A stretch of 64,000 nucleotides of DNA, from NCBI GenBank assembly GCA_963545485.1, contig CAUUJG010000004.1, positions 23,186 through 87,185 of the forward strand, given 5' to 3'. A program made the translations under genes and the position numbers. The notes beneath the pieces were generated by a model that saw only the letters and a list, made by a program, of their open reading frames with translations, made no database searches and was not told the origin of the DNA. This DNA is from an uncultured Clostridia bacterium. GTDB taxonomy: Bacteria; Bacillota; Clostridia; Christensenellales; CAG-917. Positions 15,652 to 41,165 of the stretch are shown here, piece by piece. Each line of letters starts with the position of its first letter. The stretch's first letter is position 1.

Positions 15652-17514
15652 CTACTCTTTTTTATCTTCTCGTCGATCACTTCTATATTTTTGCAAATAA
15701 ACAATAAGTATTGATACATCTGCAGGAGACACCCCAGAAATTCTAGAAGCTTGTCCTATGGATATAGGTCTTATATTCTCAAGCTTCTCTCTTGCTTCTA
15801 CTCTTAATCCTTTAAGTGCACTATAATCAATATCTTCTGGAATTAGCTTGCTCTCGATTTTTTTCTGGGCATCTATTGCTGCCTGTTGCTTTTTTAAATA
15901 TCCCTCATACTTAATTTCTATAACAGCAGCCTTCTTCGCTTCAGAAGTTTGATCTCCTTGCAAATATTTTATTACATCAATTATTTTAAGTTCCGGTCTT
16001 TTTGCTAGTTCTGCAACTGTCCCATGAATCAATCGTATATTATATTTGTCTTGAATTTCTTTTTTTTCATTCTTTGTTAATTTTCGATTAAGGTCTTCAA
16101 TGCAAGCCTCGATTTCTTTTTGTTTTACAAGATACTTTTTATATCTCTCTTCTGTTACAAGTCCTACTTCATATCCCCTTTGCGTAAGTCTTTTATCTGC
16201 ATTATCTTGTCTCAAATACAACCTATGTTCTGCTCTTGCGGTCATCATTCGATATGGCTCCTCTGTTCCTTTTGTTACAAGATCGTCTATAAGAACTCCT
16301 ATATATGCTTCATCCCTATTTAGTATAAATGGTGGTTTATTATCAATCTTATGAGCTGCATTAATGCCAGCAACTATACCTTGCCCCGCAGCTTCTTCAT
16401 ATCCACTACTACCATTTATCTGCCCTGCAAAAAAAAGATTTTCTATTTTTTTATGCTCCAGCGTTTTCTTTAATTCCAGTGGGTTTACCGCTACATATTC
16501 TATTGCATACCCGTATTTTGCAAATCTGCATTTCTCAAACCCTGGCAAAGAATGATACATTTGCTCTTGTACTTTCGGTGGCATTGATGTTGACATCCCC
16601 TGCACATACATTTCATCAGAATTCAATCCTTCAGGTTCAACAAAGATTTGATGTCTCTCTTTGTTTGAAAACCTCATTATCTTTGTTTCTATTGATGGGC
16701 AGTATCTAGGTCCTATGCCCGTTATATGTCCATTATATAATGGACTATCATTAATATTGTTTTTAATTATTTCATGTGTTATAGGCGTTGTGTATGTTAA
16801 ATAACATGGTTCAAAAATCTCAAGATCTTTATCTGTCATAAATGAGAAATGTTCCGTTTCTTCAACTATTTCTTCTTCCAATTTTGTAAAATCTATACTA
16901 TCTCTATATATTCTTGCAGGGGTTCCAGTTTTAAATCTCCGTATGTCTATTCCGTTCTTTTTTAAACTTTTTGCAAGTCCTTCCGATCTTTTGTATCCAC
17001 TTGGACCACTCTTTTTCGCATACGGACCTATTATTATTTCGCCATCAAGATAAACTCCGGTAGCTAGTACAACTGAAATTGCACTATATTTGTTTTTATC
17101 AGTTATTACACTCTGTATTTTCCCATCCTTAACTGTTATGCCTTTGCATTCTTCATATCTTACTGTAAGATTTTCCTGATTAGAAATTGTCTCTACCATC
17201 TTCTGGTGATATAAAAATTTATCTTCCTGTGCTCTTAAAGAAAATACTGCCGGACCTTTTGCAAGATTAAGCATTTTCTTTTGTATTGCTGCTTTATCTG
17301 CGTTTATCCCCATTTCTCCACCAAGTGCATCAATTTCCCGCACAAGGTGTCCTTTACTTGTCCCCCCAATTGATGGGTTGCACGCCATATATCCAACATT
17401 TGCAACATCTATACATAACAATAATGTCTGCTTACCCATCCTAGATGATGCCAGTGCTGCCTCTATTCCCGCATGTCCTGCTCCAACTACTATTATTTGA
17501 TATTTTTCCATCAT
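15652..17514 (-). CDS. mnmG: tRNA uridine 5-carboxymethylaminomethyl modification enzyme MnmG (GidA)
   Basis: FAD motif IIVVGAGHAGIEAA and full-length similarity to GidA. The likely start ATG at 17514 overlaps the mnmE stop (ATGA). The ORF is open to 17526. Confidence 0.95.
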   Translation of the reverse strand: MMEKYQIIVVGAGHAGIEAALASSRMGKQTLLLCIDVANVGYMACNPSIGGTSKGHLVREIDALGGEMGINADKAAIQKKMLNLAKGPAVFSLRAQEDKFLYHQKMVETISNQENLTVRYEECKGITVKDGKIQSVITDKNKYSAISVVLATGVYLDGEIIIGPYAKKSGPSGYKRSEGLAKSLKKNGIDIRRFKTGTPARIYRDSIDFTKLEEEIVEETEHFSFMTDKDLEIFEPCYLTYTTPITHEIIKNNINDSPLYNGHITGIGPRYCPSIETKIMRFSNKERHQIFVEPEGLNSDEMYVQGMSTSMPPKVQEQMYHSLPGFEKCRFAKYGYAIEYVAVNPLELKKTLEHKKIENLFFAGQINGSSGYEEAAGQGIVAGINAAHKIDNKPPFILNRDEAYIGVLIDDLVTKGTEEPYRMMTARAEHRLYLRQDNADKRLTQRGYEVGLVTEERYKKYLVKQKEIEACIEDLNRKLTKNEKKEIQDKYNIRLIHGTVAELAKRPELKIIDVIKYLQGDQTSEAKKAAVIEIKYEGYLKKQQAAIDAQKKIESKLIPEDIDYSALKGLRVEAREKLENIRPISIGQASRISGVSPADVSILIVYLQKYRSDRREDKKE

Positions 17515-18812
17515 TTGCCTACACAAAATCTTTCAAAAATTTTGTTTATTATGTCCTCAGTAACACTCTCTCCTGTTATTTCATCTAGGTGCCTTTTTGC
17601 TGCAATCAAACAAACTAAAACCATATCTATATACATGTTGCTATCTATTTCATTGAGTTCTGCTATTGAATCTTTTATAGCTTCGTAATGTCTCTCTGTT
17701 GTTACCAAATCATAATTCTCTATATTGTTTATCTCTAGCCGAAAAAGTATTGCGTCGAGCAATTCAATAATTCCCTCTTTGTTTTTTGCACTTATATACA
17801 CAACATCTTTTCGTTTTTTTTCAATATGCCTATTAATCTTATCAATTTTATTAATTACATACAGTGTGTTCTTTTTTTCTACATCTATTTTTAAATTTCC
17901 TGTTGCATCCAACACCTCAAGGATAATGTCTGCATTTTCTTTTTCTGAAAGTCCTTTTTCTATTCCTTTGCGTTCAACTATATTTGAACTTTCTCTTATC
18001 CCTGCTGTATCTATGAAAGTAAGCTTTACTCCTTTATATTCTATACTTTCTTTTATTATATCTCTGGTTGTTCCCGGTATATCTGTAACTATTGCTCTTT
18101 CATCATCAAGAATAGCATTTAATATGGATGATTTGCCCACATTGACATCTCCCGTCAAAACACAGTTAATTCCATTTTTTATCACTCTGCCTGTCTTATA
18201 TGTATCCTTTAATTCTTCCAGCTGTTTTTTAATTTCCGGGACTACTGTTTTGTATTCTGTCAAAACTTCATCTTCCATTTCTTCTGGATAATCAAGTGAT
18301 GCACTCATTTCAACAATAAGAGATGAAAGATTCTCTGCTATTTTTTGAACTTTTTTTGCAAACTCTCCCTTCATTAATCTATATGCAGATTTAACAGCTG
18401 CAAGACTTTCTGCATTAATCATATCTATGACGCCTTCGCAGTCAGATAATCTCATTTTCCCATTCAAAAAAGATCTTCGTGTAAATTCGCCTCTTCCTGC
18501 AAGTTTAGCCCCCTGCTTTAGAATTGTCTCAAGAGCTCCTTGCATTATCCTACTTCCTCCATGCAAATAAAACTCGATCGTCTCTTCTCCGGTATATGCC
18601 TTCTCTGGTGGCATATAAACCGCATAACCAATGTCATTAAATCCATTGCCGACAAATGTTCCGAATTTCATAAGCAAAGGAGTCCATTCTTTATCCTTAC
18701 TTATAAAAACTTGTTCTGCTATTTTTTTTGATTTTTCTCCAGAAAGTCTTAATATACCAATGCCGCCAGAACCGCTAGGTGTAGCTATTGCGACTATCGT
18801 ACTGCTTCCCAT
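17511..18812 (-). CDS. mnmE: tRNA modification GTPase MnmE (TrmE)
   Basis: G domain GDVNVGKSS, DTAGIR, and the C-terminal CVGK signature. Confidence 0.95.
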   Translation of the reverse strand: MGSSTIVAIATPSGSGGIGILRLSGEKSKKIAEQVFISKDKEWTPLLMKFGTFVGNGFNDIGYAVYMPPEKAYTGEETIEFYLHGGSRIMQGALETILKQGAKLAGRGEFTRRSFLNGKMRLSDCEGVIDMINAESLAAVKSAYRLMKGEFAKKVQKIAENLSSLIVEMSASLDYPEEMEDEVLTEYKTVVPEIKKQLEELKDTYKTGRVIKNGINCVLTGDVNVGKSSILNAILDDERAIVTDIPGTTRDIIKESIEYKGVKLTFIDTAGIRESSNIVERKGIEKGLSEKENADIILEVLDATGNLKIDVEKKNTLYVINKIDKINRHIEKKRKDVVYISAKNKEGIIELLDAILFRLEINNIENYDLVTTERHYEAIKDSIAELNEIDSNMYIDMVLVCLIAAKRHLDEITGESVTEDIINKIFERFCVGK

Positions 18813-39941: not shown

Positions 39942-40070
39942 AAGAAAAATAATAACATAAAAAGAAATAAAACATCAAAAATGCATATTAAGAGAATACA
40001 AAATAAGTAAGAAAAAAATATAGATGATATAATAAAAAATATTATTAAAAACAGGTTAAACGATATAAAA

Positions 40071-41165
40071 ATGTATATCAAAAAACTAGAAATTAAAAAT
40101 TTTAGAAGTTATAAGCATCTTCAATTGATTCCAGAAAAGGAGTTAAATTTTTTTCTTGGGGCAAATGCAACTGGGAAAACAAATATTCTTGAAAGTATAT
40201 ATTATGCAGCTTTGTTAAGATCGCCAAAAACAAATCAAGACAAAGAAATAATTCGCTTTGGGGAAGAATTTGCAGTAATAAAAATGGAGATAGCAAGAAA
40301 ACATATAACAAATGAGATTAAGATATATTTAAACAGACAGGGTGAAAAAAAAATATTAATAGATGATAACCCAATTAGAAAGATAAGTGACATTATAGAT
40401 AAATTAGGAGTGGTGTTTTTTTGTCCTGAAGATATGACGGTAGTGCAGGGTTCTGCGATTGCGAGAAGAACATTTTTAAATATAGGGATGAGTATTGTGA
40501 GCTCTGTTTTTTATGAAGAATATAACAATTATAAAAAACTTTTACAGCAGAAGGTGTGTTTATTGAAAAAACCAACCATTACACAGGAAACCCTAAAAGA
40601 ACTCGATGCTTGGGATGATTTATTATCAAAAAGTATATTTTGGATTATCAAACAAAGAGAGACATATATTACAAAACTTAGTGAAATAGCAAAAGAAAAA
40701 TATAGAAGGATTTCAAACAATAAAGAAGAATTAAACATATTTTATGAATCAACAATACAAAAACATGCAACAAGTGCAGAAATTTTTGAAGAAATTAAAA
40801 AAGAAAGAGAAAAAGATATAGAATATGGATGTGCAAGAAAAGGTCCACATAGGGACGATATTATATTTAGTTTAGATGGTGTTGATGCTCGTAAATTTGC
40901 ATCACAAGGGCAGCAGAGAACAGTTGCACTTGCATTAAAATTATCAGAACTTGAGCTATATAGCCAATATAGAGGGGAGTCGGCAATATTATTATTGGAT
41001 GATGTTTTGGGAGAACTAGATAGATATAGACAAGAAGAGCTTATAAAAGCAATATATGGACAGCAAACATTCGTTACTTCTACAGAATATGACAAACAAT
41101 TTAAAGGCACAATTTTTGAGGTTTTTAAAGAAAACAACAATTCATTTATAAAGTGCATAAGATAA
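40071..41165 (+). CDS. recF: DNA replication/repair protein RecF
   Basis: Walker A GANATGKTN, signature SQGQQRT and Walker B LLLDDV. Confidence 0.9.
   Translation: MYIKKLEIKNFRSYKHLQLIPEKELNFFLGANATGKTNILESIYYAALLRSPKTNQDKEIIRFGEEFAVIKMEIARKHITNEIKIYLNRQGEKKILIDDNPIRKISDIIDKLGVVFFCPEDMTVVQGSAIARRTFLNIGMSIVSSVFYEEYNNYKKLLQQKVCLLKKPTITQETLKELDAWDDLLSKSIFWIIKQRETYITKLSEIAKEKYRRISNNKEELNIFYESTIQKHATSAEIFEEIKKEREKDIEYGCARKGPHRDDIIFSLDGVDARKFASQGQQRTVALALKLSELELYSQYRGESAILLLDDVLGELDRYRQEELIKAIYGQQTFVTSTEYDKQFKGTIFEVFKENNNSFIKCIR

What the first reader, a model, noticed from the sequence alone, without database searches (positions are those of the whole stretch)
15652..41165. Scrambled origin neighbourhood: dnaA alone is inverted, tail-to-tail with dnaN, and gyrBA and rsmG-parB sit on swapped sides
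The usual Bacillota layout has parB-rsmG-mnmG-mnmE-jag-yidC-rnpA-rpmH on one strand. oriC follows, then dnaA-dnaN-recF-gyrB-gyrA on the other strand. In this window rpmH through mnmG keep their orientation. gyrB-gyrA (26959-31438) now lie on the rpmH side and strand. rsmG-parB (35748-37274) lie on the dnaN side and strand. dnaA (38577-39941) is inverted on its own between dnaN and recF. The stops of dnaN and dnaA are only 5 nt apart with no terminator. The 129-nt dnaA-recF spacer has no DnaA box that I can find. The overall coding-strand switch is at about 35.7 kb, so dnaA would be transcribed head-on to the rightward fork. The swaps look like nested origin-symmetric inversions, but a single-gene flip of dnaA is unusual. 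That flip separates dnaA from the DnaA-box cluster that normally autoregulates it.
Basis: partly seen in the sequence, partly recalled or inferred. Interest (0 to 1): 0.7.

Follow-up and report, generated by a model that had tools for sequence, protein, structure and literature searches.

The report
Rearranged replication origin, dnaA facing dnaN
The odd gene order around the chromosome origin is real, but it is an old trait shared by a group of uncultured gut Clostridia. In these bacteria the origin sits just upstream of dnaN, and the initiator gene dnaA lies downstream of dnaN, pointing back at it.

Summary
dnaN (37474-38571, +) and dnaA (38577-39941, -) end 5 nt apart. recF (+) lies 129 nt beyond dnaA. 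gyrBA sit on the rpmH side and rsmG-parB on the dnaN side.

This is neither a misassembly nor a recent flip. Nine of ten independently assembled relatives keep recF and dnaA divergent, and seven also have dnaN convergent with dnaA. Their DnaA is 95% down to 44% identical and their GC is 31-54%; they include Ca. Limadaptatus (Christensenellales). One relative has dnaN, dnaA and recF all co-directional.

dnaA third-codon skews are reversed in all four genomes of the window's genus, which indicates long residence on the lagging strand.

The origin is most likely the 199-nt parB-dnaN spacer (37275-37473). It holds the window's only DnaA-box cluster and a tandem box that is invariant across the clade. 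A 4-nt G+C cluster, DnaA-trio-like triplets and the least stable 40-mer of the 64 kb follow. This matches the Bacillus/Clostridioides unwinding module, but without dnaA as its neighbour.

dnaA has a box-free promoter ending 7 nt before the ATG and no Shine-Dalgarno sequence, so its mRNA is probably leaderless.

It is a new variant of a known kind, of moderate interest.

The parts
15652..21470 (-). mnmG-mnmE-jag-yidC-yidD-rnpA-rpmH block in its canonical internal order, now 16 kb from the origin and no longer next to dnaA
   Evidence: NCBIfam equivalogs; rpmH ORF of 44 aa at 21336-21470
26959..31438 (-). gyrA (26959-29547) and gyrB (29525-31438), on the left replichore
   Evidence: NCBIfam NF004043 1143 bits and TIGR01059 950 bits
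31651..31666 (.). parS-like palindrome TGTTTCACATGAAACA, 1 mismatch to the consensus
34925..35656 (-). mtnN (MTA/SAH nucleosidase), the last gene on the - strand; it stays linked to rsmG in relatives
35657..35747 (.). 91-nt divergent spacer where the coding strand switches; it has no DnaA box
35748..36452 (+). rsmG
   Evidence: TIGR00138 146 bits
36453..37274 (+). parB (Spo0J orthologue, 45-50% identical to the ParB of relatives); it lacks the N-terminal roughly 28 aa and has no parA beside it
37275..37473 (.). Predicted continuous oriC. DnaA boxes at 37277, 37297, 37308 (-) and 37328 (+). Two TATATTGTGGTTT motifs at 37349 and 37381. Tandem boxes TTATCCACT/TTGTAAACA at 37401-37417. G+C cluster TGCC at 37418-37421. 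Trio-like triplets and an AT-rich unwinding element at 37422-37463. dnaN promoter-like TAAACA-17-TATAAT at 37412-37440. Shine-Dalgarno AAGGGAG at 37462.
37474..38571 (+). dnaN
   Evidence: TIGR00663 209 bits against a cut-off of 138
38572..38576 (.). 5-nt gap between the convergent stop codons; no terminator
38577..39941 (-). dnaA, full length, with Walker A/B motifs and the domain IV motif intact; its third-position skews are reversed
39949..39978 (-). Predicted dnaA promoter TTGATG-18-(TG)TATTAT, ending 7 nt before the ATG, with no Shine-Dalgarno sequence (probably a leaderless mRNA)
39942..40070 (.). 129-nt divergent dnaA-recF spacer without a DnaA box
40071..41165 (+). recF
   Evidence: TIGR00611 327 bits

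Best explanation
The window spans the chromosomal replication origin of an uncultured, AT-rich (about 34% GC) member of the Clostridia, related to Ca. Limadaptatus (order Christensenellales).

In this clade an old rearrangement removed dnaA from its usual place between rpmH and dnaN. dnaA now lies downstream of dnaN, convergent with it and divergent from recF.

The origin itself stayed attached to the 5' side of dnaN. A continuous oriC of about 200 nt (37275-37473) carries a DnaA-box cluster and a tandem DnaA box, then a 4-nt G+C cluster, DnaA-trio-like triplets and a very AT-rich unwinding element, with the dnaN promoter overlapping them. This corresponds to the 'oriC2/incC' basal unwinding system of Bacillus and Clostridioides.

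Replication would start there. dnaN and recF are then read co-directionally with the rightward fork. dnaA is read head-on to the rightward fork, and in this genus rsmG-parB are read head-on to the leftward fork.

dnaA is transcribed from its own promoter, which has no DnaA box and ends 7 nt before the start codon. Its mRNA is therefore probably leaderless, and classical autorepression through promoter-proximal DnaA boxes is absent.

Shown here: the gene identities, the conservation of the order, the box cluster, the conserved module, the duplex-stability minimum and the skews. Inferred: that the module is the site of unwinding, that the dnaA mRNA is leaderless, and the inversion history.
For: Gene identities.

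Conservation of the order:
- L001 (95% DnaA identity) is colinear with the window over 33.2-49.9 kb, across both dnaA junctions.
- L002 (75%) and L006 (66%) have the same order.
- L007-L011 (44-49% DnaA identity, GC 42-54%, including Ca. Limadaptatus) all have recF<- dnaA-> <-dnaN.
- L012 and L013 keep recF<- dnaA->.
- Limadaptatus is placed in the Christensenellales.

Long residence of dnaA on the lagging strand: its coding-strand GC3 and AT3 skews are -0.15 and -0.08, against +0.2 to +0.58 and +0.09 to +0.33 for neighbouring genes. The AT3 skew of dnaA is also negative in L001, L002 and L006.

Location of oriC:
- The window's only DnaA-box cluster is at 37277-37409.
- In 8 of 8 loci tested, the densest 300-nt window of relaxed boxes lies upstream of dnaN, for example 7 found against 0.47 expected in the window.
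- The core TTnTCCACTTGTnnACA-N4-TTATnTATGnTA is invariant in 9 lineages.
- In relatives, 7 consecutive NAN triplets follow a 4-nt G+C cluster, which fits the published BUS pattern.
- 37423-37462 is the least stable 40-mer duplex in the whole 64 kb.
- The skew sign change lies between mtnN and dnaN.
- GC skew also changes sign at the same module in L007, L008 and L010.

dnaA promoter: relatives have TTGAAA-N17-TATAAT-N7-ATG, the window has TTGATG-N18-TATTAT-N7-ATG, and none has a Shine-Dalgarno sequence.
Against: There is no experimental or read-depth evidence for where replication starts.

The conserved module overlaps a plausible dnaN promoter (-35 TTGTCA/TAAACA and an extended -10). Its conservation could therefore partly reflect promoter function plus a DnaA operator.

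In the window itself the triplet run is interrupted: one triplet, a break, three, a break, five. NAN triplets are also expected by chance in DNA that is 98% A+T.

Gene-orientation skew puts the switch at 35.7 kb, 1.7 kb to the left of the module.

The more distant relatives have few boxes at up to 1 mismatch; the clusters there rest on a relaxed pattern that I defined myself.

The leaderless mRNA is predicted from spacing only.

All relatives are metagenome assemblies, and no closed genome was examined.
Confidence: 0.8

Rival explanations
1. Assembly artefact: dnaA was placed or inverted wrongly by the assembler, or the contig is chimeric.
For: The window comes from an unknown assembly. The region 35.7-41 kb has clearly lower GC (22-27%) than its flanks, which could suggest foreign sequence.
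Against: The same junctions occur in independent assemblies. L001 is colinear across 16 kb. L002 and L006 agree. Seven further lineages have the recF/dnaA pair. DnaA sequences 99% identical to this one occur in three other assemblies. The GC trough is present in L001, L002 and L006 as well. No repeats flank dnaA.
Confidence: 0.02
2. A recent single-gene inversion of dnaA, specific to this genome or species.
For: One relative (L014) has dnaN, dnaA and recF all on one strand, so dnaA has flipped in place at least once within the clade.
Against: The inverted state is found in 9 of 10 relatives across 44-95% DnaA identity. The third-position skews of dnaA have equilibrated to the lagging strand. 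No inverted repeats or IS remnants lie at the junctions.
Confidence: 0.03
3. The origin fires elsewhere, either in the mtnN-rsmG spacer at 35.66-35.75 kb where the coding strand switches, or in the AT-rich dnaA-recF spacer. On this reading the conserved module upstream of dnaN is only a DnaA-regulated dnaN promoter.
For: The coding-strand and raw skew switch is at 35.7 kb. The module contains a good promoter match, TAAACA-17-TATAAT (10 of 12), and TTGTCA-17-TGnTATTAT in relatives. 40012-40051 and 35711-35750 are among the least stable duplexes.
Against: Neither alternative spacer has a DnaA box. rsmG and parB have third-position skews near zero rather than leading-strand values, as expected if they lie to the left of the origin. 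The box cluster, the tandem box, the G+C cluster, the triplets and the global stability minimum all coincide at 37.28-37.46 kb. In Bacillus and Clostridioides, unwinding occurs at the homologous position upstream of dnaN.
Confidence: 0.13
4. The dnaA gene here is a non-initiator paralogue or is decaying, and the true initiator gene lies elsewhere.
For: The protein is fast-evolving and AT-driven (GC3 0.13). Its domain I is not recognised by Pfam.
Against: It gives a full-length match to the DnaA equivalog model, above the cut-off. The Walker A and B motifs and the domain IV motif are intact. The gene is conserved in the same context across the clade. Relatives do show the DnaA_N domain.
Confidence: 0.02

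Closest known systems
Bipartite oriC of Bacillus subtilis and Clostridioides difficile (rnpA-rpmH-oriC1-dnaA-oriC2-dnaN)
   Same: The unwinding module lies immediately upstream of dnaN, with the same parts in the same order: DnaA boxes, tandem boxes, a short G+C cluster, triplets and an AT-rich element.
   Different: dnaA is not the spacer gene. There is no box cluster upstream of dnaA and rpmH is 16 kb away, so the origin is continuous (about 200 nt) rather than bipartite. dnaA is convergent with dnaN. The literature describes the Firmicute context as conserved.
Basal unwinding system (BUS; Richardson 2016/2019, Pelliciari 2021)
   Same: It has a DnaA box, a spacer of 16 nt or less, and at least 3 NAN triplets on the strand complementary to the box. 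Relatives have 7 consecutive triplets (AAT AAA TAC GAT AAT AAT AAT, read 3' to 5').
   Different: In the window the triplet run is interrupted, and function was not tested.
Escherichia coli arrangement (oriC between mnmG/gidA and mioC, far from dnaA-dnaN-recF-gyrB)
   Same: oriC and dnaA are uncoupled by rearrangement (noted).
   Different: In E. coli the dnaA-dnaN-recF operon stayed intact and oriC moved away. Here oriC stayed with dnaN and dnaA moved and was inverted, but only 1.1 kb away.
Cyanobacterial origins upstream of dnaN with dnaA elsewhere (e.g. Synechococcus elongatus; from memory, not checked here)
   Same: oriC is adjacent to dnaN and not to dnaA.
   Different: The phylum is different. 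Here dnaA remains the next gene, in convergent orientation, paired with recF.
Origin-symmetric inversions ('X-alignments'; general knowledge)
   Same: gyrBA and rsmG-parB have changed replichore while staying co-oriented with their neighbours, as symmetric inversions would produce.
   Different: At least 4-6 inversions are needed. The dnaA state is not explained by a single symmetric inversion.

Membership tests
[quoted passage not shown] | rpmH divergent from and adjacent to dnaA, with a DnaA-box cluster (oriC1) between them | tested here: not met
   rpmH is at 21336-21470 and dnaA at 38577-39941. There is no box cluster near rpmH or upstream of dnaA.
[quoted passage not shown] | dnaA directly upstream of dnaN and co-oriented with it | tested here: not met
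   dnaA is downstream of dnaN and convergent with it, with 5 nt between the stop codons.
[quoted passage not shown] | recF-gyrB-gyrA following dnaN on the same strand | tested here: not met
   recF follows dnaN on the same strand, but only after the inverted dnaA. gyrBA are on the other replichore and strand.
[quoted passage not shown] | DnaA boxes plus an unwinding element immediately upstream of dnaN (oriC2/incC) | tested here: met
BUS-type oriC | A DnaA box with 2 or fewer mismatches, usually as a tandem pair | tested here: met
   TTATCCACT (1 mismatch) abuts TTGTAAACA at 37401-37417. This pair is invariant in its core across 9 lineages.
BUS-type oriC | A spacer of 0-16 nt (short G+C cluster) followed by at least 3 NAN DnaA-trios on the strand complementary to the box | tested here: inconclusive
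   Relatives have a 4-nt G+C cluster followed by 7 consecutive NAN triplets. The window has TGCC followed by triplets in runs of 1, 3 and 5, separated by breaks. The formal pattern is satisfied, but it is weak evidence in AT-rich DNA.
BUS-type oriC | An AT-rich unwinding element next to the trios | tested here: met
   37423-37462 is the least stable 40-mer in the 64 kb.
BUS-type oriC | DnaA- and ATP-dependent strand separation at the trios | not testable with these tools
   This needs purified DnaA and an unwinding assay.
DnaA initiator (TIGR00362) | A full-length match above the curated cut-off, with the AAA+ domain and domain IV | tested here: met
   448 bits against 344, profile positions 2-437 of 437. 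Pfam Bac_DnaA and Bac_DnaA_C both match.
Chromosomal ParABS locus | parA adjacent to parB, with the ParA-stimulating N-terminal peptide in ParB | tested here: not met
   There is no parA in the locus. This ParB starts about 28 residues after the GGLGxKGLxAL motif found in relatives. A parS-like site is present at 31651.

The most novel reading that the evidence does not exclude
In the window's genus the ancestral bidirectional terminator between dnaA and dnaN has been lost, leaving 4-6 nt between the stop codons, and dnaA has no DnaA box. dnaA expression could therefore be set indirectly. The DnaA-box-controlled dnaN promoter inside oriC drives transcription that reads through into antisense dnaA. 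DnaA occupancy of the origin would then feed back on dnaA through convergent transcriptional interference or antisense RNA, and each origin firing would send a head-on fork through dnaA. That would be autoregulation re-routed through gene geometry rather than through promoter boxes. The steep GC3 trough centred on the origin (0.07 at dnaN against about 0.27 in the flanks) might be a mutational footprint of these conflicts.
Probability: 0.1. Interest if true: 0.6.

Novelty: new variant of a known kind. Interest (0 to 1): 0.35.

Why it matters
Reviews and the C. difficile origin study describe the Firmicute origin context (rnpA-rpmH-dnaA-dnaN, bipartite oriC with dnaA as spacer) as conserved. 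Here, lineages related to Ca. Limadaptatus (Christensenellales), a common gut group, break that rule. The unwinding module stays with dnaN while dnaA moves, flips, or, in two lineages, leaves altogether.

Three consequences follow:
- The dnaA spacer and the upstream box cluster appear dispensable for a Firmicute-type origin.
- Origin-prediction tools that anchor on dnaA would mis-place oriC in these genomes.
- The clade offers natural variants (convergent, co-directional and unlinked dnaA) for asking what dnaA-oriC linkage and DnaA-box autoregulation are good for.

This is a comparative-genomics result, not a new mechanism.

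Tried and rejected
- Exact-sequence look-up of the window's DnaA found nothing.
- Strict DnaA-box scans (1 mismatch or fewer) gave no clusters in the distant relatives. 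I therefore used a relaxed pattern derived from the repeated TTGTCAACA motif.
- I looked for inverted repeats or IS remnants flanking dnaA and found only low-complexity AT matches.
- I tested whether the 1.7-kb ORF-free region at 33229-34924 is a structured RNA or is under constraint. It has no Rfam hit even at E<=1. It is less conserved against L001 (88.8%) than the silent sites of adjacent mtnN (94.7%), so there is no sign of function.
- I considered horizontal acquisition of the low-GC origin block and rejected it. GC3 falls in a smooth gradient on both sides of oriC and does so in three other genomes of the genus. The genes are orthologous to those of the clade.
- A sliding nucleotide-identity comparison with L001 did not show faster silent-site change at the origin. 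Silent-site identity rises leftwards instead, probably marking a recombination tract.
- Literature searches found no description of this arrangement. The library is incomplete, so this is weak evidence of novelty.
- I could not find a bracketing outgroup with the canonical order, because only hits at 44% identity or above were listed.

Full report
**1. Checking the observation**

ORF listing and NCBIfam scans confirm every gene call and coordinate in the finding.

On the - strand lie lexA, mnmG (15652-17526), mnmE, jag, yidC, yidD, rnpA and rpmH (21336-21470). These are followed by argS, ychF, a treC-like glycosidase, a nitroreductase-like gene, gyrA (26959-29547) and gyrB (29525-31438). Next come a Schlafen/AlbA_2 protein (32062-33228), 1.7 kb without ORFs, and mtnN (34925-35656).

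On the + strand lie rsmG (35748-36452), a ParB-family gene (36453-37274), dnaN (37474-38571), recF (40071-41165) and the glg genes. dnaA (38577-39941) is on the - strand between dnaN and recF.

The two stop codons are 5 nt apart. The dnaA-recF spacer is 129 nt and has no DnaA box. No terminator-like hairpin lies at the convergent junction.

GC and AT skews are very strong (about ±0.25-0.3) and change sign near 35.7-37 kb. Up to about 51 kb, dnaA is the only sizeable ORF on the discordant strand, apart from three + strand ORFs on the left that I judged spurious without testing them.

**2. Is it real, and how old is it?**

A scan of species-representative genomes found two MAGs of uncultured Clostridia.

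- L001 (95% DnaA identity) aligns colinearly with window 33.2-49.9 kb at 88% nucleotide identity, across both dnaA junctions.
- L002 (75%) has the same order: recF, dnaA, dnaN, parB, rsmG, mtnN.

A protein search showed a steep fall in identity: 99%, 74%, 66%, then 49% or less. I fetched contexts for nine of those hits.

- L006 (66%) has the same order.
- L007, L008 (Ca. Limadaptatus stercorigallinarum), L009, L010 and L011 (44-49% identity, GC 42-54%) all have recF<- dnaA-> <-dnaN.
- L012 and L013 keep the divergent recF/dnaA pair but have no dnaN nearby.
- L014 has dnaN, dnaA and recF in the same order but all co-directional.

Limadaptatus is placed in the order Christensenellales.

The convergent dnaN/dnaA, divergent dnaA/recF layout is therefore a deep, lineage-typical trait. 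Misassembly and a recent private flip are excluded. L014 shows that dnaA has inverted in place at least once in the clade.

Composition agrees with this age. Leading-strand genes here have coding-strand GC3 skews of +0.2 to +0.58 and AT3 skews of +0.09 to +0.33. dnaA has -0.15 and -0.08. Its AT3 skew is likewise negative in L001, L002 and L006. That is the signature of long residence on the lagging strand.

**3. Where is the origin?**

It lies in the 199-nt parB-dnaN spacer. Boxes are at 37277, 37308 (-), 37328 (perfect, +) and 37401 (+), with weaker ones at 37297 and 37409.

With a relaxed pattern, the densest 300-nt window of boxes falls upstream of dnaN in all eight loci tested. In the window there are 7 boxes against 0.47 expected.

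An alignment of the roughly 100 nt before dnaN from nine lineages shows an invariant core, TTnTCCACTTGTnnACA-N4-TTATnTATGnTA. These lineages' proteins are under 50% identical.

This core reads as a tandem DnaA box followed by a 4-nt G+C cluster. In relatives the next sequence is TTA TTT ATG CTA TTA TTA TTA, whose complement read 3' to 5' is AAT AAA TAC GAT AAT AAT AAT. That gives seven consecutive NAN 'DnaA-trios'. This is the architecture defined for the basal unwinding system, and it sits where B. subtilis and C. difficile unwind, upstream of dnaN.

In the window the triplet run is interrupted, so that feature alone is inconclusive. However, 37423-37462 is the least stable 40-mer duplex of the entire 64 kb.

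rsmG and parB have third-position skews near zero, not leading-strand values. That fits an origin to their right.

In L007, L008 and L010 the GC skew also changes sign at the same module.

I therefore place oriC at 37275-37473, not at the 35.7-kb coding-strand switch. The main caveat is that the module also contains a good dnaN promoter, so part of its conservation may be promoter function.

**4. How dnaA is expressed**

Upstream of dnaA, relatives share TTGAAA-N17-TATAAT-N7-ATG. The window has TTGATG-N18-(TG)TATTAT-N7-ATG at 39978-39949. No lineage has a Shine-Dalgarno sequence there.

A -10 box ending 7 nt before the start codon predicts a leaderless mRNA. No DnaA box lies in this spacer, so the classical promoter-box autoregulation is absent.

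Distant relatives have a bidirectional terminator hairpin between dnaA and dnaN. In the window's genus that spacer has collapsed to 4-6 nt. Convergent read-through is therefore possible; this is an inference.

**5. Rearrangement history**

Treating the region as six blocks, the canonical order needs at least 4 (circular) to 6 (linear) inversions to reach the window order. The local triad needs 2.

No repeats or IS remnants flank dnaA.

The surroundings differ among relatives: parAB lie on either side and in either orientation, and rsmG-mtnN stay linked. The origin neighbourhood is therefore fluid in this clade, while two units persist: recF/dnaA, and the module with dnaN.

**6. Comparison with what is known**

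Reviews note that oriC context varies among bacteria. They describe the Firmicute context, with its bipartite origin, as conserved.

This clade is an exception. It has a continuous origin attached to dnaN, with dnaA displaced.

It resembles E. coli and, from my memory, cyanobacteria only in that dnaA and oriC are uncoupled.

Head-on dnaA is not in itself unusual. In the canonical layout the leftward fork from the dnaA-dnaN spacer also meets dnaA head-on; this is my inference from the layout.

I found no paper describing this arrangement.

**7. Verdict**

The thing itself is a lineage-typical variant of origin organisation, best filed as a new variant of a known kind. Interest is moderate. It bears on origin prediction and on what dnaA-oriC linkage is for, but no new mechanism is shown.

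Noticed in passing
window 34925-41165; also L001, L002, L006: There is a steep trough of third-codon-position GC centred on the predicted origin: mtnN 0.18, rsmG 0.13, parB 0.09, dnaN 0.07, dnaA 0.13, recF 0.20, against 0.23-0.31 in the flanking genes. It is present in all four genomes of the genus and weak or absent in the 42-54% GC relatives. The cause is unknown.
   Followed up: partly
window 33229-34924: This 1.7 kb has no ORF on either strand and is 50% A on the - strand. It starts with three copies of TTTATCCCCTAC, and TTTGGTGCA recurs nearby (5 of the 7 window matches lie between 31.7 and 34.9 kb). There is no Rfam hit. Against L001 it is less conserved than the silent sites of the adjacent mtnN, so it is probably unconstrained or decayed DNA.
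   Followed up: partly
window 36453-37274: ParB lacks the roughly 28-residue N-terminal GGLGxKGLxAL peptide present in the ParB of relatives that have parA next door. No parA lies in this locus in the window genus, which suggests loss or relocation of ParA.
   Followed up: partly
window 31651-31666: A parS-like palindrome TGTTTCACATGAAACA (1 mismatch to the consensus) lies in the gyrB-upstream spacer. It is next to the second least stable duplex of the window, 31456-31495.
   Followed up: no
L007-L014 recF starts; window 35716-35750 (rsmG): recF in several relatives, and possibly rsmG in the window, also have a -10-like box a few nucleotides before the ATG and no Shine-Dalgarno sequence. Leaderless mRNAs may be common in this clade.
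   Followed up: no
window 33232-37000 against L001: Silent-site identity to L001 rises from 0.68 (glg genes, recF) through 0.74 (dnaA) and 0.82 (dnaN, parB) to 0.95 (mtnN). This suggests a recent recombination tract on the left side of the origin.
   Followed up: no
window 51598-52773: An IS256/Mutator-family transposase on the - strand marks the point where the otherwise perfect co-orientation of genes with replication ends. tRNA-Asn is at 56446-56521, followed by a 1203-aa ORF with no Pfam match (57316-60927, -).
   Followed up: no
L014 5222-6001: In the one relative with co-directional dnaN-dnaA-recF, the 780-nt dnaN-dnaA spacer is filled with repeated elements of about 100 nt (AGCGCTATTTAGCG...CTCACATACGnCAAGTATGCT...). 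This may be a trace of the event that re-inverted dnaA.
   Followed up: no
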